Source: a virus (taxonomy: Duplodnaviria > Caudoviricetes). From it: DNA of 64,000 nt. Both the position numbers and the translations under genes were made by a program. Below are positions 5,923 through 29,698 of this stretch, one piece after another. The stretch is from the IMG/VR virus record IMGVR_UViG_2852783553_000005, positions 820 through 64,819 of that record, one strand, 5' to 3'. Each line of letters starts with the position of its first letter. Position 1 is the first letter of the stretch. Below the pieces are notes generated by a model. It was given only the letters and a program-made list of their open reading frames with translations. It made no database searches and was not told the DNA's origin.

Positions 5923-5940
5923 CGCGCGCTCATCGCTCGC

Positions 5941-6828: not shown

Positions 6829-6838
6829 GGGGGACATC

Positions 6839-7468: not shown

Positions 7469-7483
7469 AGGGAGTGCCGCGAA

Positions 7484-7882
7484 ATGACTACGACCTATAG
7501 CGATAACCCGTTCATGCCGGGCATGGTGAGCGATGCCTACGTACCGGATCAACTCATAGCAGGCGATTTCAAGCTCGTCACCGAAGGGCAGGCGCAATTC
7601 CCAACCGGGCTCCAGCTCACGCGCGGAACCGTGCTGGCGCAGCAGGCAGACGGCACCTATGCCACCGCTACTTCGAGCGGTGCAGCGGCTAATGCAATCC
7701 TTGCCGATGACGTGGACACGACAGGCGGCCAGCCTGCGACGGGCGGCGTGTATTTCACGGGTGAATTCAACGCGCGCGCGCTGATTCTCGATGCGTCGCT
7801 CACGCTCGCCGCCGCAACAATCGCGCTGCGTCCGTTTTCGATTTTCGTGAAACCCAGTGTATCCGCCGCCGATCCGACGTAA
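7484..7882 (+). CDS. Head decoration protein (gpD-like)
   Basis: YVPDQLIAG, RGTVLA, ILADDVD, VYFTGEFN motifs. Confidence 0.85.
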   Translation: MTTTYSDNPFMPGMVSDAYVPDQLIAGDFKLVTEGQAQFPTGLQLTRGTVLAQQADGTYATATSSGAAANAILADDVDTTGGQPATGGVYFTGEFNARALILDASLTLAAATIALRPFSIFVKPSVSAADPT

Positions 7883-11814: not shown

Positions 11815-12894
11815 ATGAATTACGGGTTTGATCTGTCTTCCTGCCAGTTCATAACCGATCACGAAGGGAAACGACTGCGGGTTGAAATGCCGATATGGTT
11901 GTTTGACCAGTTTGTGGAACTCAGGAACGCCGCGCTACGCGCACAGGCGACGGCTTTGGAAGAAAAAACACCACGCGGCGCGTACCGCAGTTCGCTCGCG
12001 GGGCTGACAGGCGTACCCGATGTTGCGGTCTCGGTCGATGCGCCGTTCCGGCCCACGCTCCCCGAACCGCGGACAAAACGTGAACGCGCCGAACGGCTGT
12101 TTCTGACGCCGGAAGAACGGCTGATGCAGGAGGCAACGCGAGCTGTCGAGTTCCCCACGGTGTCGGAAACGTCATCAGGCGCTCCTGCGGTGTCCTGCCA
12201 GGAAGAACCGGCCTCCCTGACGCCCCGCCACCCCGCGAAGCAGCAGGTATTCTTTCCGCGTGTATTTGTCGAGCCGATTCCCGATGAGGTTGCGCGACTG
12301 ATCGAGCAGGGCAACTACAACCTGCGGGCGTGGAGACTCTATCGGGACCTTACGCCCGTTGAGGCGGCTGAACTCGCGGGCCTCTCCCCCGGCACGGTTC
12401 TCTGGCACGAACGCGGCTATAACGTGCCCAGCGTCGAGACACTGAAGCGCTTCGCGGACGTGTACGACTGCACGACCGGGCAGTTGACCCCGCAACCTGG
12501 CTCCTGCACCAAACCCTACCAGTCCGTGCCGGCCCCAAAAGGCCATGTGGCCCAATTTGCACCCGACGACACTGAGTATCCCGACGCCGTGATGGCGCAC
12601 CTGATCGATGGCAGATCCCCGATTACCGCCTGGCGAATGTACCGGCGCATGACGATTGACCAGTGCGCCAAAGCCTTCGGCTGTACATCCAAGACCTTCA
12701 AGGGTATGGAAGCGTTACCCGTGCTGCGCGACCGGACCCGGAAGAGACTGGCGCTTGTCCTTTCCTGCAACCCTGTGCAGTTGCTGCACCCCCGAGGTCT
12801 TGAAAACAAAAACACATCGCGGCCCGGCGCTTCTGCGCATCGGACAGAACACCGTGCGGCCCGTAACGATAACGCGCATCGCGCGCACCTGTAA
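11815..12894 (+). CDS. Protein with two tandem XRE-family HTH domains
   Basis: Repeats P.EV..LI.G...LRAWRLYRDLT..EAA.. and PDAV..LIDG..PITAWRMYRRMT..QCA.. Confidence 0.7.
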   Translation: MNYGFDLSSCQFITDHEGKRLRVEMPIWLFDQFVELRNAALRAQATALEEKTPRGAYRSSLAGLTGVPDVAVSVDAPFRPTLPEPRTKRERAERLFLTPEERLMQEATRAVEFPTVSETSSGAPAVSCQEEPASLTPRHPAKQQVFFPRVFVEPIPDEVARLIEQGNYNLRAWRLYRDLTPVEAAELAGLSPGTVLWHERGYNVPSVETLKRFADVYDCTTGQLTPQPGSCTKPYQSVPAPKGHVAQFAPDDTEYPDAVMAHLIDGRSPITAWRMYRRMTIDQCAKAFGCTSKTFKGMEALPVLRDRTRKRLALVLSCNPVQLLHPRGLENKNTSRPGASAHRTEHRAARNDNAHRAHL

Positions 12895-13104
12895 CGCCGG
12901 AGAAAAATCGATGGAAAAGCGAGATTCAGTTGCAAGCACAAGCATAAGACCGCTTCGTTCCTGCACATACCGGTGCAGAACGGAAGTGAGAAATGTGCTG
13001 ACTGGTGCGCAGCGCCCGCGCACGTCCGCAGCCACCCTGGATGGATAGCATCGCGTTGTAAAGCGTCGCGGTCCCATCCCCGGACCGCGACGTGTGTGGT
13101 AATG

Positions 13105-13133
13105 CCCGCACCTTTGTGTGCGGGTTTTTTTTT
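13105..13133 (+). terminator. Intrinsic terminator directly upstream of an RBS
   Basis: CCCGCAC-CTTTGT-GTGCGGG followed by T9. Confidence 0.7.
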
Positions 13134-13152
13134 GCCTTTTGGAGGTAGGGAA

Positions 13153-13638
13153 ATGAGGCTTGGTGCAAATGTCTCCCATGTGCGTGAATACCTCGGATGG
13201 ACGCGAACCGAGTTCACGTATCGTTTCGCGCCCGCCACGTTCGACCATAACAACAGGAAGCGCTGCTACGACAATCTTCGTTCGCTCGAAGTGCGAAAGC
13301 AGCATTCGTCAGAATTGCTGGCGTGGATGGAACCTGTGTTGAGAATCAGCGCCGCTGTGTTGCAGACCGACGATCTGACCCAACTCACGCATGAAGGGAT
13401 GTCATCGTTGCGTGTCCGGTATGTCGGCCCGCCGATGGATGCGCTTACGGTGGTGGTGAACCGGTGCTGTGACGGCGTCAAGCCGACGCCTGATGAATAC
13501 CGGGCCGCTATGGAACAGGCAGATAAAGCCGGTAAGCGCGAAGCGGTGTTGCAACTGCTGGAGAAGATCGCAGCAGAACGGCGCAAGTGGCATCGTGGTG
13601 GATCGGCCCTGAGGCCCAATCGCTGGAATCAGGCGTAA
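13153..13638 (+). CDS. Putative XRE-like DNA-binding protein
   Basis: RBS GGAGG; LGANV..VREYLGWTRTEF start resembles an XRE HTH. Confidence 0.5.
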   Translation: MRLGANVSHVREYLGWTRTEFTYRFAPATFDHNNRKRCYDNLRSLEVRKQHSSELLAWMEPVLRISAAVLQTDDLTQLTHEGMSSLRVRYVGPPMDALTVVVNRCCDGVKPTPDEYRAAMEQADKAGKREAVLQLLEKIAAERRKWHRGGSALRPNRWNQA

Positions 13639-13640
13639 CG

Positions 13641-13670
13641 AAAAAAGGCCCGCGCAGTAGCGGGCCTTTT
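13641..13670. terminator. Bidirectional terminator between convergent genes
   Basis: AAAAAAGGCCCGC-GCAGTA-GCGGGCCTTTT; second hairpin at ~13677-13699. Confidence 0.75.
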
Positions 13671-13712
13671 CGCAGGAAAAAGCCCCGCCGAAGCGGGGAT
13701 AGCGAGCCGAAC

Positions 13713-14444
13713 TCAGAGATCAACGAAACGCGGCAACAGGTCCTGATCGGCGAGGCGGATTTCGATATCGTTAGCCGCCTTGACGTGCTCCCGGTTGTTC
13801 ACATCAAAGACTTCATCCGTCACGCTGATGATGATCGTGCCTTGCTGCTTGCCATCGCGCCTGACAGGGATAAGGGCGCGCGCTTCTGGCATCTGGGCCG
13901 ACGCGAGAGCGTGCGGAACATAGAGCATCCAGCTTACGCCTGGTCGGTCTTCGAAAACTTGCATTTCGAAATATTTGCGTGGGCCGAACGTCACGTAGAA
14001 TGGGTCGTAAATCTCAACGACCTTGGCGACGACTTCGGCAACGGATTGGCATCCGCCGAGCCGAGACGATGTCTGGTCTTTTTCATCCACGGCCAGTTCA
14101 AAGGATTGGGGTAAAAGCCCACCGCCATCGATCGAAATCGAGAATGCCGCGCCACCTTGATCTGACTGGATGCCATTCCAAATTCCGATGGTCTTCGACG
14201 CTCCTTCATCTTTGCCTTTATAGCGTGCAGCGACTTCATTCATTGCGTCTTTTGCGGGCCGATCGTCCTCGTAGACACGATACTTTAGCGCCTTCGTCAG
14301 ATCGTCTCCTTTGAGATACCAATTTTCAAGTAACCGGTCCTTCCGCACTAGCAATTCGATAACCGGCCGAAGACGTTCGAAATGAAAGAAAAAATCTCTG
14401 TTGGGAATGTTGTTGGCGTCCCGATGTTGCGAAAACAGGTTCAT
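13713..14444 (-). CDS. Imm52 family immunity protein
   Basis: WYLKG, GIWNG, QVFEDRPGVSWMLYVP, GTIIISV..VFD..N.EH..AN.IEIRL..QDLLP; follows Tox-REase-5. Confidence 0.85.
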   Translation of the reverse strand: MNLFSQHRDANNIPNRDFFFHFERLRPVIELLVRKDRLLENWYLKGDDLTKALKYRVYEDDRPAKDAMNEVAARYKGKDEGASKTIGIWNGIQSDQGGAAFSISIDGGGLLPQSFELAVDEKDQTSSRLGGCQSVAEVVAKVVEIYDPFYVTFGPRKYFEMQVFEDRPGVSWMLYVPHALASAQMPEARALIPVRRDGKQQGTIIISVTDEVFDVNNREHVKAANDIEIRLADQDLLPRFVDL

Positions 14445-14451
14445 GGCCGAC

Positions 14452-15075
14452 TCAGGGTTGATAGATAGAAGAAACGCCATTGGCTGAGAGAGTTCGCAGC
14501 ATATAGGCGCGGGTCTTCGGCGTTTGAAAGTACCACATTAGCTTCGCAGGAGGATTAGCGCGCACGATCGCGCCCTGCGTCTTGATCTGATCTTGCATCG
14601 AATCGAAGCCCGTGAAAAAGCGCAATACTTCGCCATCGTCCCTTATGAACTGATCGTAATTCCCCTTCGCTTCCTGCAAGAGACATCGGGAAGACTGAAA
14701 CCCATCAAAATCCGTGGCGAACCATTCCCATTCCATATTCCAGCCTTGGCTGGTCTCCCGGCCTTTGCCGTCCGTTGTAATCCCATACTCGAAGCCGGTA
14801 ATGCGCGCCTGATAGCGTCGAGGCTCGGGATTCATGCTGTGATTTCGCTGTACCTTTTTGCCGGCCTTCTCAGGCGGGCACTTGCACGGTCTCTCGCGCT
14901 CGCGGCTCCGGTCACGCGGTAGTTCGCCCCATCCGCCGTCTGCACCTGCGCCAGTGCTGCTGCTGCCTGCGGGACCAGCAGACGGTGCGGCGGTGGGGAC
15001 CGGAACAGGCATAGGCATTGCCTGCGCCATTGCGTTTGCTGCGTGTGCGAGCGCCGCCGGGAATGGAATACCCAT
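14452..15075 (-). CDS. Tox-REase-5 restriction-endonuclease-fold toxin
   Basis: CKCPP, YQARITG, DFDGF...CLLQEAKGNYDQF, P.AKLMWYFQTP. Confidence 0.88.
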   Translation of the reverse strand: MGIPFPAALAHAANAMAQAMPMPVPVPTAAPSAGPAGSSSTGAGADGGWGELPRDRSRERERPCKCPPEKAGKKVQRNHSMNPEPRRYQARITGFEYGITTDGKGRETSQGWNMEWEWFATDFDGFQSSRCLLQEAKGNYDQFIRDDGEVLRFFTGFDSMQDQIKTQGAIVRANPPAKLMWYFQTPKTRAYMLRTLSANGVSSIYQP

Positions 15076-15419
15076 CAGCGTTTCTCCTTCATTTCCTGTT
15101 GCCTTTTACCCGTTGCCTGTAGCAGCATTTCAAATCGCTGTTCAGCCGGAACGCCTGATTTGTGCAGCCATGCCATGACCGCCGGAATCCGGTAAAACCC
15201 CGGCGTGGTGGCTTCCACATACAGGAAATTGACTATCGGCACGTCACGCGTAAAGCGGAGTACCTTGGTTTGCGCGAAGGCCGCATTAAGCCGGTCGCGC
15301 AAGGTCGGATCATTGGCCAGCGCGGGATAGTCGCACACGATATGACCACGGATAAAGTCCACATAGTTGCGGTCTTCGTGGGCTTTCAGAAGCGCCCATT
15401 GCCCTTCAGTAAATTCCAT
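15075..15419 (-). CDS. Hypothetical protein (co-chaperone position in DUF4123 loci)
   Basis: Overlaps both neighbours; MEFTEGQW..L helical protein. Confidence 0.6.
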   Translation of the reverse strand: MEFTEGQWALLKAHEDRNYVDFIRGHIVCDYPALANDPTLRDRLNAAFAQTKVLRFTRDVPIVNFLYVEATTPGFYRIPAVMAWLHKSGVPAEQRFEMLLQATGKRQQEMKEKR

Positions 15420-15909
15420 TGTCGTTGATGGTGAACCGTCGTCCTTCGTTGAGGTAGTGCCACGCGTCGGCAGCCCTGAAAAGCTCGCGCTCGCTCCTGC
15501 CGTGGCATACCGCATTGAGCGCATGCAACACCCTGGGGTCCCAGAAGCGCAGCAGGGCGGAACGTCCGTCCGGTATTCGGGTATCCAGGTGCGGGCGCAG
15601 CTTTGCGGCCTGCCTCTCCAGGCTCTCTGAGGTGATCAGCCAGATCACGCCAGGGCGGGCCTGTTCGAGCTCGCGCAGGACCGCAAGATGGTCGCGCGCC
15701 GTCGTCAGATCAACCAGCCACGGCCCCGCGTGTGCGAGTGCCATGTCGTTCGTGCCCGCGAACAGCGAAACCGTCCTATCGTTTTCGGGCATGAATTGCT
15801 GGCCGGTATGCTGCTGGTAATGAATACCGTCCACCAGCGCCAGCACGTGGCCACTGAAGTGCCGTTCCCCATACTGGCGAAGCTGTTCATTGACAGAGGC
15901 GGGAATCAT
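15406..15909 (-). CDS. DUF4123 (T6SS effector adaptor/chaperone)
   Basis: ALVDG, SLF.GT...LAHAGPWLV, LRPHL, ALLRFWDPRVL. Confidence 0.88.
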   Translation of the reverse strand: MIPASVNEQLRQYGERHFSGHVLALVDGIHYQQHTGQQFMPENDRTVSLFAGTNDMALAHAGPWLVDLTTARDHLAVLRELEQARPGVIWLITSESLERQAAKLRPHLDTRIPDGRSALLRFWDPRVLHALNAVCHGRSERELFRAADAWHYLNEGRRFTINDNGIY

Positions 15910-16268
15910 CAGCGCTCCAGGGTCATTGCGCCTTGCCCGGCAGCGTGGATCATGCATTCGAGACAGATAGACGACTGCGGAAGCACCGATCGGGGTGTTG
16001 CGCCGTGGAGCGATAACGGGCCTTTTTTCTGCGCGGTATCAGGGGTGCGTCCGCGACAATTGCACGCCCATGCGTAACCCAGGGCTTCGGCCATCTCGTA
16101 ACCGGTTGCATAGGACTTCAGACTATCGAACGGAAACCATTCGCCGGTTTCGGCGTTCAGCGCCATTGCAGACGGCATTGGCGGGAAGTTTGAGTAGATT
16201 GAATAGGTGATACGGCAAAGGTCGCACTCTTCCTTGCCCATGGTTTCATCCTGTTTCTGTTGCTCCAT
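15909..16268 (-). CDS. Small Cys-rich protein with VgrG/PAAR-like C-terminal tail
   Basis: RBS AGAGG; CDLC and CNC motifs; ends SICLECMIHAAGQGAMTLER; TGATG overlap with DUF4123. Confidence 0.6.
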   Translation of the reverse strand: MEQQKQDETMGKEECDLCRITYSIYSNFPPMPSAMALNAETGEWFPFDSLKSYATGYEMAEALGYAWACNCRGRTPDTAQKKGPLSLHGATPRSVLPQSSICLECMIHAAGQGAMTLER

Positions 16269-16427
16269 CTGACCTCTGCTGTTTTTCCAGAACACACCCG
16301 ACGAATTAACCATCCAAAACGCGACACGGTCAACGACTTTAAATTGAGATAAAGCCGTTTTGACAGATTTCCACAATTGCCCTTCCTATCTCAATTTAAG
16401 GTGCATTTTTCCAATATCACCGTCCAA

Positions 16428-16453
16428 CAAAAAAGCGGCATTGAGCCGCTTTT
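16428..16453. terminator. Bidirectional terminator
   Basis: A-run-AGCGGC-ATTGA-GCCGCT-TTT. Confidence 0.65.
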
Positions 16454-16474
16454 CCCGTAAGTGATCGACGCCGG

Positions 16475-16876
16475 TTAGTGCTTTGTCCATGAAGCGTCCA
16501 TAGCCGCCAGTTTCCCGTTCGCGCCCTGCGCAGCGTCAGCGAGAATCGCTGCCGCGTCCTGCGGTGTCAGTTGGCGGTTAGGAAGCCCCTTGGCGTCGAG
16601 CGCAAGCACCGTGTACAGTTCCTGATCGCAGCGGTTGGTCGCGTGGTAGTTCTCGCCGATCTGGATCATCAGTTCCAGCAGGCTGCGGTGTTCGTGTCTT
16701 TCCACGACAGTCACAGCAGGACTCCTGAGCATTGAGGTCGCAAGTGTGATCAGGTGTTGAAGTTGCTGGCTCTGCCGATCACAAAGATGGAAGGCCGCAA
16801 GCGCGAGCCGTTCATACTGGAGAGCGTCTACAGGGGGACGAGAGGGAGATTGCTGCTTTCGGGTGGGTTTGGTCAT
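16475..16876 (-). CDS. Hypothetical protein downstream of c4-like RNA
   Basis: RBS AAGGA, 133-aa helical ORF. Confidence 0.55.
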   Translation of the reverse strand: MTKPTRKQQSPSRPPVDALQYERLALAAFHLCDRQSQQLQHLITLATSMLRSPAVTVVERHEHRSLLELMIQIGENYHATNRCDQELYTVLALDAKGLPNRQLTPQDAAAILADAAQGANGKLAAMDASWTKH

Positions 16877-17118
16877 GCGCGGTCCTTGTTATCGTGAAGG
16901 ATCGCCCGGACACATAAGGAGGTGGTGAGCGGGCGCAGTGACAGGGTTGGCAGACCGGACTTGAAGACCAACGACCGGCAGGCGCGAGCGCCTCCCTGCC
17001 AAGGCCCGCCCGTAGAAAACAGACGTGCAGAGGCAAAGGCATCGCCTGCTAGGCAGGCGTGCCGGTCTTCAAGATTTTTCAGGCTGCCAAGCCTGATCCG
17101 TCGATGTTTTGACGGCAT
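16873..17118 (-). CDS. Ash/Icd-like leader ORF overlapping the c4 RNA and its targets
   Basis: GGPWQGGARAC....SGLPT..RP resembles the Ash-family motif; translation uncertain. Confidence 0.35.
   Translation of the reverse strand: MPSKHRRIRLGSLKNLEDRHACLAGDAFASARLFSTGGPWQGGARACRSLVFKSGLPTLSLRPLTTSLCVRAILHDNKDRA
16945..16970 (-). promoter_or_regulatory. c4 antisense target site (a2/b2-like)
   Basis: Minus-strand GGTCTTCAAG..CTGCCAA complementary to single-stranded parts of the RNA at 17060-17117. Confidence 0.75.
17060..17117 (-). ncRNA. c4 / P4 CI-type antisense RNA
   Basis: Minus strand: CCGTC-AAAACATC-GACGG hairpin, TCAGGC-TTGGCA-GCCTGA hairpin, CTTGAAGACC element, terminal TGCCG/CGGCA complementarity; TATAAT -10 at 17123-17128. 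Confidence 0.75.
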
Positions 17119-17151: not shown

Positions 17152-17316
17152 TTATTGGGATAGTGCGCTGTCGCGAAAGCTCGAGGGGACTTTCACCGTC
17201 CCCGTATGACCTTCAATGCCGCTCACGGTGTTGTCGTTTCCTTCGATGTAAATCACGGTGCAGGCCGTCAGCATCGGGACCGCGAGAACGAGCAGGATCA
17301 ACGCAACGCGTCGCAT
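17152..17316 (-). CDS. Small lipoprotein
   Basis: RBS AGGAG; MRR + hydrophobic helix + lipobox LTAC. Confidence 0.65.
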   Translation of the reverse strand: MRRVALILLVLAVPMLTACTVIYIEGNDNTVSGIEGHTGTVKVPSSFRDSALSQ

Positions 17317-17371
17317 GATGGAGTTCTCCTGCGCGACAGGTAGGCGTCTACCGTCCGTGCCGTTTGCCTCA

Positions 17372-18736
17372 TCAACTGTATTCACGCATGATCAGCAGCC
17401 CGTCGCTGCCATTGCCAGCGTTGTACGAACCTGGCAGGCCGGTTCCACCGCCACCGCCCGCTCCCCGACCTGTGGCGTCATGAACCGGAGTCGCCCCGGA
17501 AGGACCATAGACACCGCCCATCCCGGCTGTGCCGAACATCGACCTTCCGCCTGCGGTGTAATTCGATGCCGTCGTGCTGACAACCGGCAGGGAGCCTTCG
17601 CCGCGCAGGTTCAGGTCGCCACCGCTGCCAGTTCCACCGGGCGCACCGAGCAGGACGGCATTCGTGGCCGAGCCAGACCCGCCTGCGCCACCGGTCGCGA
17701 CGGCAAGGGGTGATCGCAGGTCTCCCAGATGAGTCAGATAGCCGGGACTACCCGCGTTGCCCGAAGCTGGTACGGTACCACCCTTACCGATGCCGATATC
17801 CAACTCGTCCGGCAGACTGTCAGCGGAGCGGCGCAGCCAGACATAGCCTCCCGCGCCGCCACCCGTTGCCGTGCCCGCATTGGACGTCCGGCTGGCGACA
17901 CCGCCCGAGCCGCCACCGCCCTGAAGTGCGGTCTCCACCATAGCCGGACTGTGATCCGATTTCCGCCACGGCGGGTTCCCTATCGAGTGCGTACCCGTCC
18001 CCGCGTTGGTCATCGATATGGGTGCGCCGCCCTGCGTGTCGGAAATCTGGAACGTGCTCTGGTCGGCGGACACCTGAACCACGAAATAGGTCGCGCCCTG
18101 CGCAATGCTGCCCGGTAACGAGTCCGTACTGCTGAACGTCACCGGCGATCCGGTGAGAGGCGAATGGAGCGAGCATGTGATGACCGGCGAGCCGGCCGAG
18201 AACGTGACGCTTTGAGCTACGACGGAATAGACGGTGGCCGCGAGCAGCGTCGAGCCGCGCTGCGGAGCCGGAATGTCCGGCCTGTTGAGTATCGCGGCAA
18301 CGCCTGATTCTGCGTTCCAGTCGGCGTTGACCTGCGCAGCAGGGATCGCAGGCCGGTTGAGGATCGCGGCGATTCCACTGTCTGCGTTCCAGTCCGAATT
18401 GACCTGACCAGGCGGAATGACAGGCTGGTCCGTCAGGTCGTGGTAGCTGCCAGTGGTGGCAACCGTTGCAAGACTGCCGGTAATCGTACTGACTGTTTTG
18501 GCGAACGACTCAACAAGAACATCCGCAAGCTGGTTAACCTGCGTGAAGTCTGGTGTTCCACCAAGCGCGATGATGGCGTTGCGCAGTTCCTCGGTAATCG
18601 CGTGATACCACCACTCGCCGGGCACAGTTCCGGTAACGCCCGCCGCCGGATTGCCATTTGCCGGAAAGCCCCCCGGATTATCTGCGGGTGTTTCGGGCGC
18701 ATCCTCGACCGCGTTGGCCTGCCAGTAGCGATCCAT
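17372..18736 (-). CDS. Tail fibre protein 2 (Gly-rich C-terminus)
   Basis: N-terminal WWYHAITEELRNAI..D.T..NQL baseplate-anchor domain, two VNxDWNAxSGxAAILNRP repeats, GGGG-rich tip. Confidence 0.8.
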   Translation of the reverse strand: MDRYWQANAVEDAPETPADNPGGFPANGNPAAGVTGTVPGEWWYHAITEELRNAIIALGGTPDFTQVNQLADVLVESFAKTVSTITGSLATVATTGSYHDLTDQPVIPPGQVNSDWNADSGIAAILNRPAIPAAQVNADWNAESGVAAILNRPDIPAPQRGSTLLAATVYSVVAQSVTFSAGSPVITCSLHSPLTGSPVTFSSTDSLPGSIAQGATYFVVQVSADQSTFQISDTQGGAPISMTNAGTGTHSIGNPPWRKSDHSPAMVETALQGGGGSGGVASRTSNAGTATGGGAGGYVWLRRSADSLPDELDIGIGKGGTVPASGNAGSPGYLTHLGDLRSPLAVATGGAGGSGSATNAVLLGAPGGTGSGGDLNLRGEGSLPVVSTTASNYTAGGRSMFGTAGMGGVYGPSGATPVHDATGRGAGGGGGTGLPGSYNAGNGSDGLLIMREYS

Positions 18737-18737
18737 G

Positions 18738-18947
18738 TCATTCCCCGTCACCCGGTACAAAGTCGGCGATATCGCCAAAGTGCCCCGCGAGGCACGCCTC
18801 GAAAATGTCGCGACCGTGCTCGTGCGGATCGTCCGGCATGGCGATGAATGGCATGAAGTTGTCGAAGCGCTCGAAGTGAACCTCGCAACGAATGCCGCTG
18901 TGTTCCGCGTCGGCCCATGCGGGATTCCTGACAGCAACAATGTCCAT
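18738..18947 (-). CDS. Tail fibre assembly chaperone-like protein
   Basis: RNP.W....I.CEV.F....PF.A..DD..EHGR.IF.....G.FG.I motif; coupled to fibre genes. Confidence 0.7.
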   Translation of the reverse strand: MDIVAVRNPAWADAEHSGIRCEVHFERFDNFMPFIAMPDDPHEHGRDIFEACLAGHFGDIADFVPGDGE

Positions 18948-19660
18948 CACGCGATCCTCGTCCATACGCACCAATAGTCGCTCGCAGCGGACGCATTGCC
19001 GCTGCTGAGCCACGTTCCGGGACGCCCCGGCAGCGCTGCGACCGTACCTTCCGGCGCGGACTGGCTGCTATCGCCTGCACGCACAATGAACGCCACCCAC
19101 CCGATTCCGTTTCCGCTGAGCGGTTGCAGGTTGGCCGGTGTCCATGCGCCGCCCACCTGGCCCCGCAGATCGTTCACCGCGTTGTTCACGTTGTTGATGC
19201 TGTTTTGCAGGTTGCTGACGTTGCCCTGCAGCTCAGCCTCGAAGACCACGTTGCCCTCGTCGGTCTGGTCAACCGTGACACCCAGCCCGCTGCCGTTGGG
19301 TCGCCATCCGATATGAACCTTGTTCGCCCCCTGGCTCACGCCGCCGCCTTGCTCCACGGGCGTGAATCCGAGCGGTGCAGGCGTCCCGATCACGTCTTCA
19401 TATCTGATCGAAACGGCGAGATGGGCGAGCGCTGCAAGCAGCGACTGCGCGAGTTGATCGACCTTCGTATGGTCGGGCGACGCGCCGAGCGCGACGATGG
19501 CATTGCGTAGTTCCTCGGTGATCGAATGGAACCACCAGGCGCCCGGTGTCGTCGGCGCTATCGCGGCGGGCAGACTGCCGTCTGTCGGAAAGCCGCCCTC
19601 GTTATCAACGGGCACGGCTGGCGCCTGAGCGGCGCTGTTCGCTTCCCAATAGCGATCCAC
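18947..19660 (-). CDS. Tail fibre protein 1 (short)
   Basis: Same N-terminal anchor domain as fibre 2; LGFTPVEQGGG..Q..NKV.IGW repeat. Confidence 0.8.
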   Translation of the reverse strand: MDRYWEANSAAQAPAVPVDNEGGFPTDGSLPAAIAPTTPGAWWFHSITEELRNAIVALGASPDHTKVDQLAQSLLAALAHLAVSIRYEDVIGTPAPLGFTPVEQGGGVSQGANKVHIGWRPNGSGLGVTVDQTDEGNVVFEAELQGNVSNLQNSINNVNNAVNDLRGQVGGAWTPANLQPLSGNGIGWVAFIVRAGDSSQSAPEGTVAALPGRPGTWLSSGNASAASDYWCVWTRIA

Positions 19661-19672
19661 GTTGATTTCCTC

Positions 19673-20278
19673 TCAGTGATGGGAGAACGCCACAACCGAC
19701 TGTGCAGGCGCATAGCGGCGCAGCAGACATTCGATCATCGTCAGCGTCGGCGACGTGCCCCAGGCGGAGAGCGGATTGTCTACGGTGTCCTCGACCGTGT
19801 TCCATCGCGGCGGCGGCGCGCTGATGACATCGACCAGCCAGCCATGCGCCCAGTCGGTATTGGCAATCGGTGTCGTGACGGACCGCATGACGTGATGAAC
19901 GGCAAATTCCGTAATCGTGATCGTGTAGCCGAGTGTCGCGGCCAGTGCCCTGAAATACTCGGGGGACTGGCCGCCCGTACCGATCAGGCGGGCGACGATC
20001 TGTAGCCTGTTCTCGTCGTCAGAGTCGAACGGCCCGAAGCATGGATCAGGCAGCGCGAGCGACGCATTCCATTCGGGTAGCAGCGCGTCGGCGGTCGCCG
20101 GAAAAGAGCCAGCGATCAGCGTCAGCGCGTCGCTATCGATCGTGGCGGGTGTGTTCGCGAGCGCATCGAGCACGGCGGCCTGCGTGCCGCTGTCCTCGCG
20201 CGTCCAGACACGTCCACGCGGCAGCAGCCGCCGCAATACGCCTGCGTAGTCCGCGCGGCTATAGCGCGCCGGGTTCAT
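19673..20278 (-). CDS. YmfQ/DUF2313 (Mu gp48-like) baseplate protein
   Basis: LLPRGRVW, LLPEW...L.LPD.C, GGQS..YF..LA..LGY.ITI.E. Confidence 0.88.
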   Translation of the reverse strand: MNPARYSRADYAGVLRRLLPRGRVWTREDSGTQAAVLDALANTPATIDSDALTLIAGSFPATADALLPEWNASLALPDPCFGPFDSDDENRLQIVARLIGTGGQSPEYFRALAATLGYTITITEFAVHHVMRSVTTPIANTDWAHGWLVDVISAPPPRWNTVEDTVDNPLSAWGTSPTLTMIECLLRRYAPAQSVVAFSHH

Positions 20279-20283
20279 GTCAG

Positions 20284-21396
20284 TTACGACCACGTAACCT
20301 CACCGGGCACCGCGAGCGCACCGGCCGGAAGCATCACGTCGTCAGTCGGCGACAGAATCAGAAAATCATTGATGCCGGAGACGGCGGCAATGGCCGACCA
20401 CAGATGCGCGAGAATCAGGAATCCGCCCGGTTCGCCCTCGCTTTTCATCAGTCCCGCGATAGCGTCGAGCGCGGCGTCCTGCCTGTCGGGCGCCACGCCA
20501 CGAATACTGATATCGACCGGGTACGGCTCCGGCGCGACGACATAAACCAGCGCGGTAACGGGCCGCAATGGATAGATTGCGTTGGCCACGGCGAGCTGGT
20601 CGCCAGTCGCGGGCGTGTCTCTTGTCTCGGCTGACGCGACACCGTCTCTGCCCTGCGGGAAGCCGTCATGCTGCGCGTTCGCCTCATCGAGCATCACGAA
20701 CACGATGACCGTACCGGCACCGTAGCCATTGCCCGTACACCACGCGCGCGTGACTCCCGGAACGGCGAGCGCCCATGCGACATAGTCGCTCGCCGCGCCA
20801 CCCTGCGGCGGGTTCTGGTAGACGAACAGGACACGCGCACGGTAGGCATCGTTCGATTCAATGTCCGCGCCGCCTCGGAATTCCGTTGCGGCAACGCCGG
20901 TCGAATCGATACCCGGAATCGCGCTGGCGAGCGTGAATTGCGTCCCGACCGCGCAATCGCCGTTCAGGCCTGCCAGTCCTGCCGGGTCCGGGTTCGCGGT
21001 CGCGGCCACCGTGACCTTACCGGCTTCGACGGCAGCCGCCGCAGTGACCGTGTAGGGCAATCCGTCGCTGCGCTTGAGTCCCGTTCCGCTATTGACCGGT
21101 ACGCCTTCGGAGCCGGCGAACGTGACAAGACCCGAGGACTGCGACGCGCTCTTGCGCAAAACGCCCCTGAGCGCGCCCCACGCCTCGAGAAATTCGTCAG
21201 TCGCCGTGAACGGCGTAGCCTGCAATGCGATCCAGTCGAGATACCCGTACTGCATGTGCGCGAGCCCGGCCTGAACGTCGCCGAGCACGCGCAGATTCGA
21301 GAAGCGCAACAGGGCATCGGCACCCGGCAGGTTCGCATTCAGTTCCTGCGCAACCTGATTGCGCAGGGCCGTCAGCGTCGGTCGTGAGAAAGGCAT
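20284..21396 (-). CDS. Baseplate J / Mu gp47-like protein
   Basis: RPTL..LR, GADIE..YR.RV, PPQGGA..DY..WA..VPGVTRAW. Confidence 0.92.
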   Translation of the reverse strand: MPFSRPTLTALRNQVAQELNANLPGADALLRFSNLRVLGDVQAGLAHMQYGYLDWIALQATPFTATDEFLEAWGALRGVLRKSASQSSGLVTFAGSEGVPVNSGTGLKRSDGLPYTVTAAAAVEAGKVTVAATANPDPAGLAGLNGDCAVGTQFTLASAIPGIDSTGVAATEFRGGADIESNDAYRARVLFVYQNPPQGGAASDYVAWALAVPGVTRAWCTGNGYGAGTVIVFVMLDEANAQHDGFPQGRDGVASAETRDTPATGDQLAVANAIYPLRPVTALVYVVAPEPYPVDISIRGVAPDRQDAALDAIAGLMKSEGEPGGFLILAHLWSAIAAVSGINDFLILSPTDDVMLPAGALAVPGEVTWS

Positions 21397-21426
21397 GCGC
21401 CTTAAGAAAGGGACTACCGGTCGGGG

Positions 21427-21861
21427 CTAGGTTCCCGTCCACACCCTGGGGAAGCTCATCGCGACGCGCGTGCCGTCGCGGCGGCTCGCGACAATCGCCA
21501 GGTCGAGCCGGTTGGGTGTGACCCATTGCGGCGTAATGTCGAAGCGCGCCACCACGCCGTCATCGAGCATCCATTGCAGCGCCTCGCTCGCGTAGTCGCC
21601 AGCGCGCTGCGCCACGTCGCGCGGTCCCTTGACCCGGGAGAGCAGCCACAGGCGCGAGCCAATCGGGTAGTCGGCGCTGTCGCCCCACCAGCCGCGCCGG
21701 TCGCCGTCCGGTGTTTCGTCGCTCGGCAATGCCAGCCGGTCACTGAAAAGGCTGATAAGCACGGCGGTCTGCAGGTCGTTGCCGGATCGCAGGGAGGCGC
21801 CCGCAAGCATCCAGTCGCCGCGCATGTCCGGTACATTCCAGACGGTTGAGATATCGCCCAC
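21427..21861 (-). CDS. Mu gp46-like baseplate wedge protein
   Basis: DLQTAVLISLFSDR.A, RRGWWGD, IGSRLWLL.R, EALQW..DGV. Confidence 0.88.
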   Translation of the reverse strand: MGDISTVWNVPDMRGDWMLAGASLRSGNDLQTAVLISLFSDRLALPSDETPDGDRRGWWGDSADYPIGSRLWLLSRVKGPRDVAQRAGDYASEALQWMLDDGVVARFDITPQWVTPNRLDLAIVASRRDGTRVAMSFPRVWTGT

Positions 21862-21871
21862 GGCGCGGAAA

Positions 21872-22459
21872 TCAGAGTTGCGGTTGCGGTATGTCGCTGG
21901 TTGCGATGTCGCTGCCGCGCTGCACGTCCGGCACCGGATGATGATGTGAGTTGTAGACGGCGCGCGAAGCGGCAGCGGTGTGCGGGTTGGTCGCGCTGTT
22001 GTCGCGCATGTCGCCCGCACAGGTGATATTGCCGTCGCCCTCGATATCCCCGGTGCAGTGGAACAGCGGCGCATCGGCGGTGATCTGCGGCGCGTTGGTG
22101 ATCGTGACAGGTTGACCGCCACCGTTGACGACGATCCCCGCTGCGGACAGATGGACCGATTGCCCCTTGTCGTCACTGATGCAGACCTCGCCCGGCGCGA
22201 GATTGCGGAACCTGTACTGCTGGTTGCCGCATGCAATCACCACGCCGTTCGTGCGGTCGCCACCGAGAAACACCGCGAGCGCGTCGCTCCCCGCTGGCGG
22301 ATTCGACTGGAACCCGTATTCCGCGAGTCGCGGCGTGCCGTCGCGTGTCTCGTTCGCGGATAGCTGCATCTGTACAAGCTGAACCGCGCCGCCATCGTCC
22401 ACGCGCGTAAGGCGTCCGCGTCCGAGCGCGCGAACGAGGCTCCAGAACAGGTGTTCCAC
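21872..22459 (-). CDS. Mu gp45-like baseplate spike protein
   Basis: EYGF.S.PP.G, GGDR..GVV, GEV...D..G, C-terminal HxH. Confidence 0.88.
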   Translation of the reverse strand: MEHLFWSLVRALGRGRLTRVDDGGAVQLVQMQLSANETRDGTPRLAEYGFQSNPPAGSDALAVFLGGDRTNGVVIACGNQQYRFRNLAPGEVCISDDKGQSVHLSAAGIVVNGGGQPVTITNAPQITADAPLFHCTGDIEGDGNITCAGDMRDNSATNPHTAAASRAVYNSHHHPVPDVQRGSDIATSDIPQPQL

Positions 22460-22467
22460 GATTGACG

Positions 22468-23532
22468 CTATCGTTGCGCGAGCGCGGCAGCAGCATCCGC
22501 AGGCAACGGCAGATAGAGGATCGGTTCGGGCCGGAACGCTTCAGGCGGCATCAGCGTGAGTTCGCAGCCGGTCCCGCTCATGTCGCGTCGATAGGTCACT
22601 TCACCAAGCGTCCACTTCGCGCCGTCGATGAGCTTCAGTTGCGGCAGCGAGAGCGCGGCCAGCGTGTTCGGCGCATAGAGCGAACCCGCGCTGTCGCGCC
22701 ATGACGTGGCCGTGATTGATACCACGTTACCGCGCCCGATGCGCCGGTTGCATTCCCATAGCGCGTGCGCGTTCGACACGTCCGCGCCCGCGTCGCCGTT
22801 CTGCGCGATGAACGCCTTGGGACGGAAACGCGGCATGGTGTCATCAGCCACCGTGTATTCGGCGAGCGGCTGCTGACCGGCATCCGTGAAAATGCCAGTG
22901 CCTACCAGATAGACGCGGTATTCGCTGAAGCGCTGCGAGATATCGCGCGTATAGCTTGCCTGTTCGACATTGACGCCCATCGCGAAACCGCCCGCCGCCT
23001 CAATGGTCGAAAGCGGCCCGATCACCAGATCACCGTCCGCATCCTCGTAACACAGTACCTGTGCGAGCTTGCACAGACGGTCGATGGCGGCATACGGTGA
23101 TTCCCCGACATTCAGACAGACCTGCGGGTGCAGCATGCCTGGCGTGAGCGCCTTGACCCGGATGCCGAACGGCTGCGCGAGCTGGGCCGCAATATCGGCG
23201 GTCGCCATGTTGACGAACTGGAACGAATCAAACTGTGCAGAACAGTCCACCAGGTCTTCGCACTTGCCACGCCCCGATATCGACAGCGTATGCGTTGTCG
23301 CGCTGACCGACTCTGCCACCCGGTCCACGTATCCAGTAATGACCGGGTTTGCACCGATGTTCACGACGCAGGAGTCCCCTTCCATGACCACGACCGTTGT
23401 CGTGTTTGGAAAGCGCTCGGTCATCGAGATATCGAAGTCGGCCGGGATACGCTCCATGCCGCGCGTGATGCGCACGCTTTTCCAGCCTGCGATGCTCGAC
23501 CCGTTGACGGTCAGCGATACATCGTCGCTCAC
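22468..23532 (-). CDS. Mu gp44/P-like baseplate hub protein
   Basis: GWKSVRITRG, VITGYVD, GR.K..DLVDCSA, RFSEY. Confidence 0.88.
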   Translation of the reverse strand: MSDDVSLTVNGSSIAGWKSVRITRGMERIPADFDISMTERFPNTTTVVVMEGDSCVVNIGANPVITGYVDRVAESVSATTHTLSISGRGKCEDLVDCSAQFDSFQFVNMATADIAAQLAQPFGIRVKALTPGMLHPQVCLNVGESPYAAIDRLCKLAQVLCYEDADGDLVIGPLSTIEAAGGFAMGVNVEQASYTRDISQRFSEYRVYLVGTGIFTDAGQQPLAEYTVADDTMPRFRPKAFIAQNGDAGADVSNAHALWECNRRIGRGNVVSITATSWRDSAGSLYAPNTLAALSLPQLKLIDGAKWTLGEVTYRRDMSGTGCELTLMPPEAFRPEPILYLPLPADAAAALAQR

Positions 23533-23623
23533 GCTCAGCCCCACGCTTTATCCAGTAGAGACACGTGGTACGCTGGCGCGGTGCAGTACAGTTACCCAAT
23601 CAACCCAACTCAACGGAGGGCAA

Positions 23624-24556: not shown

Positions 24557-24696
24557 AAATCGTTGCTCTTTCCGTCGGTACCCAGACAAGGACTTACTCA
24601 GTCCCCTCGGGGATGGGACATTGGCATGCGACTACCGTCCAAAGCGGCGGCCTGGCATAGTTGCTGGCGATCAGGCCATTTACAGATCGAACACTT

Positions 24697-25245: not shown

Positions 25246-25271
25246 GTAATGGTTTGGAACGGTCGCTAGTC

Positions 25272-26645: not shown

Positions 26646-26665
26646 TCTATCCTCCTTGCTGCCAT

Positions 26666-29694: not shown

Positions 29695-29698
29695 CTAC

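What the first reader, a model, noticed from the sequence alone, without database searches (positions are those of the whole stretch)
13713..16268. Prophage-borne orphan nuclease-toxin module led by a small non-VgrG, non-PAAR carrier-like protein
Seen: five tightly coupled genes: 119-aa Cys-rich ORF, DUF4123, small helical protein, Tox-REase-5, Imm52. No VgrG, PAAR or Hcp gene is in the window, and the toxin has only a short hydrophobic/Pro-rich N-terminus. Established: DUF4123 adaptors normally follow VgrG/PAAR and load effectors on the carrier's C-terminal extension. Inference: the first ORF ends in SICLECMIHAAGQGAMTLER, which by eye resembles the CxxC-helix tails of Burkholderia VgrG/PAAR proteins found before DUF4123, but its N-terminus (CDLC..FPPMP..GEWFPF..WACNC) is not recognisably PAAR or VgrG. 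It may be a new carrier class, a divergent metal-binding spike tip, or a link to the prophage's own gp45 spike (the module is co-oriented downstream of the tail genes).
Basis: partly seen in the sequence, partly recalled or inferred. Interest (0 to 1): 0.78.

Follow-up and report, generated by a model that had tools for sequence, protein, structure and literature searches.

The report
Phage-borne T6SS toxin carrier protein
A prophage of a Paraburkholderia soil bacterium carries a nuclease toxin kit whose first gene joins a small, undescribed four-cysteine domain to the tail end of a secretion-spike protein, and this domain seems to stand in for the whole spike when toxins are loaded onto the bacterial type VI injection machine.

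Summary
Five overlapping minus-strand genes (13713-16268) encode a 119-aa protein of no known family, DUF4123, a small protein, Tox-REase-5 and Imm52. The 64.8-kb provirus record has no VgrG, PAAR or Hcp.

ORF1 is a chimera. Residues 1-72 are a four-Cys domain found only in Paraburkholderia: 18 of 213 species genomes, 1-15 copies each, and 26 hits among 1.84 billion proteins. It is always N-terminal, its model is confident, and no PAAR homology or known fold was detected. Residues 78-119 are 88% identical to the last 42 residues of a VgrG.

In species without the domain, a full VgrG with this tail sits directly before the same cargo genes. Other family members carry a VgrG-type TTR loading platform or a fused toxin, each followed by matching effector and immunity genes. 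Two sibling proviruses carry a VgrG or PAAR proteins in the same slot.

Best reading: a lineage-specific T6SS delivery domain that makes secreted adaptors and polymorphic effectors, analogous to RIX or PIX, carried here as a phage moron. Secretion, zinc binding and the docking partner are untested. A link to the phage's own spike is not supported.

The parts
17152..17385 (-). 77-aa ORF with a lipobox-like LTAC motif. It is a conserved phage gene between the tail fibre and up133.
   Evidence: Found at the same place in sibling proviruses L122 (86% identity), L123 and L124, and as a fragment in the chromosomal remnant L098. No Pfam family.
16475..16876 (-). up133: 133-aa protein of no known family. 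It is the last conserved phage gene before the variable T6SS slot.
   Evidence: 89-93% identical in L122 and L123, 58% in L124. Intact upstream of ORF1-family genes in 12 of 51 genome loci, with fragments in more. 44% identical copy upstream of the VgrG in L098. No Pfam, PHROG or NCBIfam hit.
16429..16450 (-). Terminator-like hairpin (AGCGGC-N5-GCCGCT plus a T-run), 25 nt after the up133 stop. It coincides with the end of homology to the sibling provirus.
   Evidence: Sequence read. RNA fold -16 kcal/mol, z -4.24, 0 of 200 shuffles as stable. The consensus scan did not list it. DNA homology to L122 and L123 ends at 16,429.
16053..16268 (-). ORF1 residues 1-72: four-Cys N-terminal domain (C15xxC18 ... 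C69xC71), the proposed T6SS delivery or carrier domain.
   Evidence: C15, C18, C69 and C71 are among the 16 invariant columns in 34 sequences. AF2 pLDDT is above 90 for residues ~20-70. dN/dS is 0.11-0.27 in 10 of 10 pairs. 26 hits among 1.84e9 representatives, always N-terminal. DNA homology to the other family loci stops at 16,041-16,052.
15909..16052 (-). ORF1 residues 73-119 plus the stop: a fast-evolving linker and a VgrG-derived C-terminal tail (residues 78-119 = 15912-16037), the proposed docking site for DUF4123.
   Evidence: 88% identity (37 of 42) to the end of VgrG P0102. The core ICLEC..HAA..G...LER is conserved across 7 ORF1 and 7 VgrG tails. DNA homology to VgrG-led loci starts at 16,037-16,039. 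The AF2 model is disordered apart from a short helix at 104-109.
15406..15909 (-). DUF4123 adaptor (Tap/Tec/TecT type), 167 aa from the ATG that overlaps the ORF1 stop.
   Evidence: Pfam PF13503 3.6e-22, phrog_24412 8.1e-39, TGATG junction.
15075..15524 (-). ORF3, 149 aa. It sits where the co-chaperone gene sits in TecT/co-TecT/TseT operons.
   Evidence: No family. Always lies between DUF4123 and the toxin in the 10 of 10 related loci fetched. Found in 38 of 213 species genomes. The operon layout 'PAAR, DUF4123 chaperone, hypothetical co-chaperone' is described in 10.1101/835710.
14452..15075 (-). Tox-REase-5 nuclease effector with an ~85-aa Pro/Ala/Gly-rich N-terminal region.
   Evidence: Pfam PF15648 3.2e-28 over residues 86-186, phrog_17530 1.1e-52.
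13713..14480 (-). Imm52 immunity protein.
   Evidence: Pfam PF15579 2.6e-10, phrog_14863 5.2e-67.
13682..13698 (-). Terminator-like GC hairpin plus T-run, directly after the Imm52 stop. It marks the end of the operon.
   Evidence: 6 of 6 GC pairs. The scan found 3 sites in the region against 4.1 expected by chance, so this is weak on its own.
11815..13638 (+). Two convergent genes, dn221 (12973-13638) and HTH dn359 (11815-12894), that form the conserved far flank of the slot.
   Evidence: dn359 has HTH_31 and HTH_3 domains. Both genes recur beside the cargo in the chromosomal remnant L098 (59% and 65% identity). dn221 recurs in L004 (93%).

Best explanation
ORF1 is a secreted T6SS adaptor, a small carrier built from two parts. 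Its first 72 residues are a Paraburkholderia-specific four-Cys domain, probably zinc-binding. This domain acts as an N-terminal T6SS delivery domain and attaches whatever follows it to the host's secreted T6SS apparatus. Its last ~42 residues were taken from the C-terminus of a VgrG and form the docking tail for the DUF4123 adaptor encoded next. DUF4123, with the ORF3 co-chaperone-like protein, holds the Tox-REase-5 nuclease, and Imm52 protects the producer. The operon sits in a variable moron slot at the tail-fibre end of a temperate myovirus. Lysogeny therefore gives the host a new T6SS weapon that does not need its own VgrG or PAAR.

Shown here: the gene content, the chimeric structure and its recombination junctions, the family's polymorphic C-termini matched to downstream effectors, substitution for VgrG or PAAR in equivalent cassettes, purifying selection, and the phage slot.

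Inferred: secretion through T6SS, zinc binding, binding of the tail to DUF4123, and the identity of the docking partner.
For: 1. Chimera. Residues 78-119 are 88% identical to the end of VgrG P0102, which carries Phage_GPD, T6SS_Vgr and DUF2345. DNA homology with 35+ other family loci ends at 16,041-16,052, and homology with VgrG-led loci begins at 16,037-16,039.

2. Substitution for VgrG. In 8 of 10 loci fetched from species that lack the domain, a VgrG with this tail lies 3 nt before DUF4123-ORF3-Tox5-Imm52. In G001-G004 the tail occurs only in frames of 116-159 aa and on no VgrG.

3. Substitution for PAAR. The commonest family tail (26 of 51 loci) occurs elsewhere in the genus on ~178-aa PAAR proteins followed by an M35-like effector with an HExxH motif and a lipoprotein (seen in the translations of 3 of 4 such loci). 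It also occurs at the end of ~900-aa frames, at least one of which is a VgrG. Its model matches the TTR domain of the VgrG spike bound to Tle1 (6sjl_A: Z 8.1, rmsd 1.9 A, 56 residues, 29% identity; next row Z 6.4).

4. Polymorphic-toxin logic. The domain is always N-terminal. The tails co-vary with the first downstream gene: M35 in 9 loci, lysozyme in 9, SLT or its partner in 3, 3D-domain in 2. There are also direct toxin fusions, such as a 384-aa GHSLGG lipase.

5. T6SS setting. 5 of 5 carrier genomes tested have VgrG (3-5 each) and PAAR (1-5 each). One type-A module lies ~1.7 kb after tssM in a T6SS cluster that also holds a VgrG.

6. Selection. dN/dS is 0.11-0.27 for the domain (10 of 10 pairs) and 0-0.39 for the tail core. 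The TGATG coupling to DUF4123 is kept.

7. Phage slot. Sibling proviruses share fibre-lipo77-up133-terminator. After that, one carries a full T6SS VgrG (L123, 82% identical to P0102) and another carries PAAR-tail proteins (L122).

8. Precedent. [quoted passage not shown] PIX binds a specialised VgrG (preprint abstract).
Against: There is no experimental or expression evidence: no RNA run holds the region. The host genome is not held, so it is unknown whether this lysogen has a T6SS. No docking partner for the domain was identified. Co-occurrence with an extended ~1290-aa VgrG is incomplete and confounded by shared ancestry. In the published TseT-type systems the effector contacts PAAR itself (10.1101/835710), so the cargo might reach the spike without ORF1. 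The tail is predicted as largely disordered. The dN/dS values for the tail rest on 0-5 substitutions per pair. 8 of 51 family loci are truncated or pseudogenised, which shows frequent decay.
Confidence: 0.6

Rival explanations
1. The four-Cys domain is a structural spike-tip cap, a functional PAAR replacement that sits on the end of the VgrG trimer. On this reading ORF1 is a specialised structural component and not a cargo-type adaptor.
For: It replaces PAAR in PAAR-TTR cassettes and in the phage slot. Its CxxC...CxC pattern parallels the CxxC...CxC in the PAAR-tail proteins of the genus. It is small (72 aa).
Against: The model has three helices and two short strands, unlike the all-beta PAAR cone as I recall it. 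hhalign gives 0.8% probability against the PAAR-tail proteins and there is no PAAR_motif hit. Genomes hold up to 15 copies beside 1-5 true PAARs and 3-5 VgrGs. It also replaces a whole VgrG, which a tip cap cannot do geometrically.
Confidence: 0.15
2. ORF1 is a recombination by-product with no role in delivery. A vgrG 3' end was left fused to a resident small gene when the cargo cassette moved. The toxin is loaded through DUF4123 or its own N-terminus onto a resident PAAR or VgrG, and the Cys domain does something else, for example regulation.
For: The precise chimera junctions show it arose by recombination. The family decays often: 8 of 51 loci are truncated, and L038 is a deletion fusion of ORF1 to DUF4123. 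In the TseT-type systems the effector binds PAAR directly. L098 has a different 129-aa ORF carrying a second tail copy.
Against: The intact chimera is kept in at least 5 species at 79-89% identity, with purifying selection on both the domain and the tail core. In those genomes no VgrG carries the tail, so DUF4123 has no other cognate partner. The same domain precedes TTR platforms and toxins in 40+ loci, with tails matched to the effector, which is hard to explain without a delivery role.
Confidence: 0.15
3. The module serves the phage. ORF1 loads the nuclease onto the virion's own tail spike or baseplate for injection during infection.
For: It is co-oriented with the tail fibre genes and directly downstream of them.
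Against: A terminator-like hairpin separates it from the late genes. None of the 51 homologous loci had a match to this phage's structural proteins within 10 kb. No other IMG/VR contig has the domain. Sibling phages carry bona fide T6SS VgrG or PAAR genes in the slot. The tail and cargo are VgrG-linked in chromosomes.
Confidence: 0.03

Closest known systems
RIX domain proteins of Vibrionaceae: polymorphic T6SS effectors and secreted adaptors (PMC10435454; passages read)
   Same: A family-restricted N-terminal domain. It is fused either to toxins or to TTR-type loading platforms followed by a cargo effector and an immunity gene. The paper states explicitly that it replaces PAAR and VgrG in such modules. 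The loci are orphan, and the docking mechanism is unknown.
   Different: No sequence relationship was detected, since ORF1 has no Pfam or NCBIfam hit. RIX itself could not be compared here. RIX is arginine-rich, whereas this domain has four invariant Cys. Here one tail type is a VgrG tail that recruits a DUF4123 adaptor, giving an adaptor-on-adaptor relay. That arrangement is not in the passages I read.
PIX domain of Enterobacterales (bioRxiv 10.1101/2023.07.16.549128; abstract and outline seen)
   Same: An N-terminal delivery domain that defines orphan polymorphic T6SS effectors. It is necessary and sufficient for secretion and binds a specialised VgrG.
   Different: PIX is described on effectors, and in the abstract not on adaptors. 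A different bacterial order. No partner is known for the domain studied here.
PAAR-TecT(DUF4123)-co-TecT-TseT(Tox-REase-5)-TsiT operon of P. aeruginosa and the PAAR-DUF4123-hypothetical-Tse-Tsi operons of Burkholderia gladioli (as described in 10.1101/835710, passages; the original TseT paper was not read)
   Same: The same cargo logic: DUF4123 chaperone, small co-chaperone gene, Tox-REase-5 nuclease and immunity gene, led by a carrier gene.
   Different: The carrier there is PAAR. In most Paraburkholderia it is a VgrG with a short tail. Here it is the four-Cys domain plus that VgrG tail. Homology of ORF3 to co-TecT was not tested.
TTR domain of the EAEC VgrG1 spike that loads Tle1 (PDB 6sjl and 6ski)
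   Same: The commonest tail of the ORF1 family is predicted to have this fold (Z 8.1, 29% identity over 56 residues) and precedes a separately encoded effector.
   Different: The window's own ORF1 carries the short DUF4123-cognate tail and not the TTR domain.
Phage-borne T6SS auxiliary clusters: Ralstonia phage RSA1 (PAAR-DUF4123-hypothetical-Imm52 at its left end, RefSeq annotation) and the phiRSY1-like prophage aux clusters (PMC11481896, passages)
   Same: A temperate myovirus that carries a T6SS carrier, adaptor, effector and immunity cassette as cargo.
   Different: Those cassettes are led by PAAR or are vgrG-linked. Here the leader is the new domain, and sibling phages show VgrG, PAAR or the domain in one slot.

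Membership tests
PAAR (PF05488) | Match to the PAAR_motif profile | tested here: not met
   0 Pfam families for ORF1 at E<=0.1. As a positive control, the genus's PAAR-tail proteins score 7.1e-08 (L114) and 3e-05 (L116).
PAAR (PF05488) | Profile-profile similarity to PAAR proteins of the same genus | tested here: not met
   hhalign of A2 against A3: probability 0.8%, E 0.069, 20 columns around the CxxC only. A3 has only 4 sequences.
PAAR (PF05488) | All-beta cone fold that caps the VgrG trimer | tested here: inconclusive
   The AF2 model shows H16-27, E35-37, E44-46, H47-52 and H56-63. Binding to VgrG is not testable here.
VgrG | gp27/gp5-like body (Phage_GPD, Phage_base_V, T6SS_Vgr, DUF2345) | tested here: not met
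   No Pfam hit. BLASTP against VgrG P0102 aligns only residues 78-119.
VgrG | C-terminal tail placed immediately before a DUF4123 gene | tested here: met
   88% identity to the P0102 tail. The same tail ends the VgrG in 8 of 10 loci, 3 nt before DUF4123. Core residues are invariant in 14 of 14 sequences.
N-terminal T6SS delivery domains (functional class: MIX, FIX, RIX, PIX, WHIX) | The domain is at the N-terminus of all members | tested here: met
   Of the 26 hits, the 13 best (E<=1e-30) start at residue 1. Two distant ones start at residues 24-26 and the rest are fragments or weak repeat-protein hits. The longest member is 384 aa.
N-terminal T6SS delivery domains (functional class: MIX, FIX, RIX, PIX, WHIX) | Polymorphic C-termini (toxins or loading platforms) with matching downstream effector and immunity genes | tested here: met
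   Tail classes in the 51 loci: 26 TTR-like, 5 VgrG-tail, 2 NNQAQN, 1 lipase, 9 other, 8 truncated. The downstream genes are matched to the tails.
N-terminal T6SS delivery domains (functional class: MIX, FIX, RIX, PIX, WHIX) | Takes the place of PAAR or VgrG in otherwise equivalent modules | tested here: met
   for VgrG, for PAAR, and for the same slot in sibling proviruses.
N-terminal T6SS delivery domains (functional class: MIX, FIX, RIX, PIX, WHIX) | Necessary and sufficient for T6SS-dependent secretion | not testable with these tools
   This needs secretion assays.
N-terminal T6SS delivery domains (functional class: MIX, FIX, RIX, PIX, WHIX) | Sequence homology to one of the named domains | tested here: inconclusive
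   No Pfam or NCBIfam family matches. I did not verify which of these domains those libraries hold, and no RIX, PIX or WHIX sequence was compared.
TecT/co-TecT/TseT/TsiT-type cargo module | DUF4123 adaptor, Tox-REase-5 effector and Imm52-type immunity in one operon | tested here: met
TecT/co-TecT/TseT/TsiT-type cargo module | Co-chaperone homologous to co-TecT between the adaptor and the toxin | not tested
   ORF3 holds that position in 10 of 10 related loci, but no co-TecT sequence was compared.
Phage moron (cargo of a temperate phage) | Lies inside a phage genome at a position that varies between related phages | tested here: met
   L122, L123 and L124 share fibre-lipo77-up133. Homology to L122 and L123 ends at the hairpin (16,429), and different T6SS genes follow. 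The att sites were not located.

The most novel reading that the evidence does not exclude
The 72-residue four-Cys domain is a new minimal docking module for the T6SS spike. It would be a ~8-kDa zinc knuckle of no known fold that can functionally replace an entire 735-residue VgrG body or a PAAR cone as the handle for effectors. Temperate phages could then hand their hosts plug-in ammunition (adaptor plus toxin plus immunity) that rides on whatever spike the host already makes. The same handle has been reused for 10-15 orphan effector loci per genome.
Probability: 0.4. Interest if true: 0.75.

Novelty: new variant of a known kind. Interest (0 to 1): 0.66.

Why it matters
Finding T6SS effectors is hard because they lack a universal signal. 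Each newly recognised delivery domain (MIX, FIX, RIX, PIX, WHIX) has opened up a catalogue of effectors.

This four-Cys domain would do the same for a clade of legume-nodulating and soil Paraburkholderia. It marks 1-15 orphan loci per genome, whose cargo includes nucleases, M35 peptidases, lysozymes, transglycosylases, lipases and several tails of unknown function.

Three sibling prophages carry a VgrG, PAAR proteins or this domain in one slot, with the same or equivalent tails. This is a natural swap experiment, and it makes an open question directly testable: how do non-structural delivery domains attach to the spike? At 72 residues with a confident model, the domain is an attractive target for structural and binding studies.

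The finding also adds a case of temperate phages spreading T6SS weapons. In this case the weapon does not need to bring its own spike protein.

Tried and rejected
Binding of the tail to the adaptor remains an inference.
- RNA evidence: no RNA holder was listed for 13600-17000.
- ESM Atlas for ORF1: the best score was 0.82 with unnamed clusters, which gives no lead. For up133, clusters auto-named 'four helix bundle' and 'phasin' scored 0.91, which is a lead only.
- Fold searches with the ORF1 model: Foldseek PDB best E 4.2, VIA-align wide best Z 2.2, BFVD best E 1.1. No known fold was found. This shows neither novelty nor absence.
- PDB sequence search with the domain profile: only designer repeat proteins, with 0 significant stretches. 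Judged spurious.
- Word-based search for the TTR-like tail in longer proteins: nothing. The six-frame genome search then found it on PAAR proteins and in VgrG-sized frames.
- N-domain in IMG/VR: 52 pattern matches, 0 confirmed. ORF1 against the GenBank phage collection: no match.
- Docking-partner idea: a ~1290-aa VgrG with a 460-aa extension is present in all five carrier genomes first examined. Across the genus, 12 of the 14 genomes with an extension at least 67% identical also have the domain, but 6 of the 18 domain genomes lack such a copy. The pattern is confounded by shared ancestry and was rejected as evidence.
- Internal in-frame deletion of a vgrG as the origin of ORF1: rejected. The N-domain has no similarity to the VgrG N-terminus, and it forms a conserved, selected domain family.
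- Earlier findings of this scan: nothing on record.
- Literature searches turned up no paper describing this Paraburkholderia domain. This covers only the held open-access library and those search terms. PMC10673891, a genome-wide survey of T6SS discrimination domains, was seen only in a search listing and may bear on novelty.


Full report
**1. What is in the window**

The window is an IMG/VR provirus record (64,819 b; the window is bases 820-64,819 of it). No host genome is held. It is a temperate myovirus:
- a serine recombinase at 62309-64000 and RecT
- terminase, portal and head genes at 35-46 kb
- sheath, tape measure, baseplate and fibre genes at 17372-34099 on the minus strand

Left of the finding lie two HTH-type genes, a second phage remnant (portal and S49 protease at 4-7 kb) and two transposases.

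The five genes of the finding are present as described:

| Gene | Coordinates (minus strand) | Evidence |
|---|---|---|
| ORF1, 119 aa | 15909-16268 | no Pfam, PHROG or NCBIfam family |
| DUF4123 | 15406-15957 | 3.6e-22 |
| ORF3 | 15075-15524 | no family |
| Tox-REase-5 | 14452-15075 | 3.2e-28 |
| Imm52 | 13713-14480 | 2.6e-10 |

- All junctions overlap. The ORF1 stop and the likely DUF4123 start form TGATG.
- A stable hairpin with a T-run (-16 kcal/mol, z -4.2) follows the upstream gene up133. A GC hairpin with a T-run follows Imm52. The five genes therefore look like one separate operon.
- The record has no PAAR, VgrG (Phage_GPD) or Hcp match. For a provirus-only record this says nothing about the host.

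**2. ORF1 belongs to a narrow, expanded, polymorphic family**

- A search of 5.8 billion proteins gave 85 relatives. Every one that bears an organism name comes from a Paraburkholderia or from a strain named 'Burkholderia sp.'; a few are unnamed metagenome or assembly proteins. There are several per genome.
- A profile of residues 1-76 found only 26 representatives among 1.84 billion. In the 13 best the domain starts at residue 1, and the longest protein is 384 aa.
- In one genome per species, 18 of 213 Paraburkholderia genomes have the domain, at 1-15 copies each.
- The first 72 residues are conserved. Sixteen columns are invariant in 34 sequences, including C15, C18, C69 and C71.
- Everything after the CxCR motif varies.

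Tail classes in the 51 genome loci:

| Tail class | Loci |
|---|---|
| ~60-residue beta-rich tail | 26 |
| the window's CxxC tail | 5 |
| NNQAQN-type tail | 2 |
| fused lipase (GHSLGG) | 1 |
| other tails | 9 |
| truncated | 8 |

- The gene that follows tracks the tail. The window-type tail is always followed by DUF4123-ORF3-Tox5-Imm52 (L002-L006; L038 is a deletion fusion of ORF1 to DUF4123).
- After the beta-rich tails, the first downstream gene is an Aspzincin_M35 protein in 9 loci, a phage-type lysozyme in 9 (often with an LprI inhibitor), an SLT protein or its partner in 3, and a 3D-domain protein in 2.
- The upstream flanks are unrelated housekeeping genes. These are therefore scattered orphan islands. 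One exception lies ~1.7 kb after tssM in a T6SS cluster that also holds a VgrG.

**3. ORF1 is a chimera of the family domain and a VgrG tail**

- Residues 78-119 are 88% identical (37 of 42) to the last 42 residues of a 777-aa VgrG that carries Phage_GPD, T6SS_Vgr and DUF2345.
- I used ORF3 to find the cargo module across the genus (38 of 213 genomes) and fetched 10 loci from genomes that lack the domain.
- In 8 of the 10, a VgrG ending in this tail (45-81% identical to ORF1's) lies 3 nt before DUF4123-ORF3-Tox5-Imm52. In L095 the tail is in a different frame from the VgrG body. In the other 2 loci no tail was found directly upstream.
- The tail core ICLEC..HAA..G...LER is conserved in all 14 aligned ORF1 and VgrG tails.
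- At the DNA level, homology between the window and the other family loci stops at 16,041-16,052. Homology with the VgrG-led loci starts at 16,037-16,039. This puts the recombination junction within about ten bases.
- In four genomes that carry the chimera, the tail occurs only in frames of 116-159 aa and on no VgrG. The neighbouring DUF4123 therefore has no other cognate tail there.
- The domain itself has no similarity to VgrG, so ORF1 is not an internally deleted vgrG.

**4. The other tails are also spike-derived loading platforms**

- The beta-rich tail occurs in 109 of 213 genomes.
- Outside the domain-bearing species it sits on ~178-aa proteins whose N-terminus is PAAR (PAAR_motif 7.1e-08, 3e-05 and 0.0018 for three of four tested). 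In 3 of those 4 loci the downstream translations show an M35-like protein with an HExxH motif and a lipoprotein.
- It also sits at the end of ~900-aa frames, one of which I checked to be a VgrG (L103).
- A model of a family member with this tail (mean pLDDT 82) puts residues 78-136 on the TTR domain of the E. coli VgrG1 spike bound to Tle1. The match to 6sjl_A has Z 8.1, rmsd 1.9 A over 56 residues and 29% identity, and the next row has Z 6.4. Foldseek's top two rows are 6sjl and 6ski.
- A further tail (P0063, L030) is 60% identical to the tail of a PAAR protein in a sibling prophage.

**5. The domain is not PAAR and matched no known fold**

- The model of residues ~12-74 is confident (pLDDT above 90 over most of it) and the same in two independent runs: helix 16-27, strands 35-37 and 44-46, helices 47-52 and 56-63.
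- There is no PAAR_motif hit, and hhalign against the PAAR-tail proteins gives 0.8% probability.
- Foldseek (PDB, BFVD) and VIA-align found nothing.
- Zinc binding is an inference from the four invariant Cys. I could not reach the model coordinates to measure distances.
- The domain is under purifying selection: dN/dS 0.11-0.27 in 10 of 10 pairs. The tail core gives 0-0.39, but from few substitutions. The linker evolves faster.

**6. The module really is phage cargo, in a slot that takes T6SS carriers**

- Three related proviruses share baseplate, fibre, a 77-aa lipobox ORF and up133 with the window. L122 is 93% identical from 22,450 down to 16,429, and homology to L122 and L123 ends exactly at the hairpin after up133.
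- After up133, L123 carries a full T6SS VgrG of 847 aa (Phage_GPD 5.1e-50, T6SS_Vgr, DUF2345). It is 82% identical to P0102 and diverges after the same TVQK(Q/K)G linker.
- After up133, L122 carries an unknown gene, then a protein with a PAAR_motif hit (3.6e-10), then a second protein with a similar tail but no Pfam hit, then further genes.
- One phage lineage therefore shows a VgrG, PAAR proteins or the four-Cys domain at one position.
- A chromosomal locus in another species (L098) keeps both flanks of the slot: a lipo77 fragment and up133 on one side, dn221, dn359 and a third gene on the other. It has no match to this phage's structural proteins in the 20 kb fetched upstream. It looks like a prophage remnant.
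- up133 is intact upstream of 12 of 51 family loci. This suggests that such phages, or recombination through their ends, spread the cassettes.
- None of the 51 loci had a match to this phage's structural proteins, and no other IMG/VR contig encodes the domain.
- Phage carriage of T6SS cassettes is itself known. Ralstonia phage RSA1 has PAAR-DUF4123-hypothetical-Imm52 at its end, and prophage-borne auxiliary clusters are described for Ralstonia (PMC11481896, passages).

**7. Mechanism proposed**

- The domain attaches the protein to the secreted T6SS apparatus.
- The VgrG-derived tail recruits DUF4123, which with ORF3 carries the Tox-REase-5 nuclease.
- Imm52 protects kin.
- The prophage supplies the whole kit without a spike gene.

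[quoted passage not shown] That paper also speculates that other family-specific secretion domains exist (PMC10435454, passages). PIX binds a specialised VgrG (preprint abstract).

Shown here: architecture, chimerism, substitution, selection and the phage slot. Inferred: secretion, zinc binding, tail-adaptor binding and the docking partner.

**8. Weak points**

- 5 of 5 carrier genomes tested have VgrG and PAAR, but I did not test all 18.
- The tallies 38 of 213 and 109 of 213 include one unpublished genome (G180). No other claim rests on it.
- Gene calls in the related loci come from my own greedy ORF picking, so counts of 'first downstream gene' are approximate.

**9. Verdict**

The idea of a link to the phage's own spike is rejected. 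The logic is that of the RIX and PIX delivery domains, so this is a new variant of a known kind: an undescribed, non-homologous four-Cys domain, a VgrG-tail/DUF4123 relay, and a phage slot in which a VgrG, PAAR proteins and the domain are interchangeable.

Noticed in passing
window 23600-28350: A low-GC (52-55%) insertion of ~4.8 kb sits inside the tail operon, between the two baseplate-hub genes (22468-23544 and 28354-29694). Four minus-strand ORFs there have no PHROG or Pfam hit. A 495-aa plus-strand ORF (23069-24556) has a Schlafen AlbA_2 domain (6.3e-14) and may be a defence gene. In sibling L122 the gap between the same two hub genes is only ~2.5 kb.
   Followed up: partly
window 15406-15524; also L103 6896-6993: The DUF4123 and ORF3 genes overlap by ~100-120 nt in different frames. 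The overlap persists in relatives only 41-45% identical, and the tblastn alignments reach ORF3 residue 1-2. I did not test whether both frames are really translated.
   Followed up: no
L098 6249-6638: In a species without the four-Cys domain, a 129-aa ORF of no family ends in a second copy of the VgrG tail (ICIECLVHAASNGVITLER). It lies between the tail-bearing VgrG and DUF4123. Small tail-bearing proteins with other N-termini therefore exist.
   Followed up: partly
L063 7397-11260 (G002) and its orthologues: A ~1290-aa orphan VgrG has a 460-aa C-terminal extension of no Pfam family. It is followed in several genomes by one to three short frames that repeat only its last ~60 residues. This looks like an array of displaced C-terminal tips.
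   Followed up: partly
L038 10001-10510 (also P0076): An in-frame deletion joins residue ~56 of the four-Cys domain to the middle of DUF4123, giving a 169-aa fusion that the source annotates as a DUF4123 protein. P0001 has a 22-residue internal duplication across the CxC motif.
   Followed up: no
window 16475-16876 and 17152-17385: up133 and the 77-aa lipobox ORF are conserved at the fibre-distal end of this phage lineage. They persist, whole or in pieces, upstream of many chromosomal T6SS cassettes and of a VgrG in L098. Their function is unknown. The Atlas neighbours of up133 are auto-named four-helix-bundle or phasin-like (score 0.91, a lead only).
   Followed up: partly
L043 1230-1734: In a MAG contig, a fragment of a serine recombinase lies ~360 nt upstream of a truncated family member, in the opposite orientation. 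Its last 94 residues are 83% identical to the window's integrase. It may be another decayed prophage of this lineage.
   Followed up: no
window 47-7500: A second, fragmentary phage (lambda-type portal 4252-5922, S49 protease 6019-6828) and two DDE transposases (47-934, 1574-2557) lie left of the module. The provirus record therefore probably spans more than one element.
   Followed up: no
L017 (518-bp contig): A 518-bp contig filed under a Chryseobacterium assembly encodes residues 47-119 of a type-A ORF1 at 85% identity. It is most likely contamination of that assembly by Paraburkholderia DNA.
   Followed up: no
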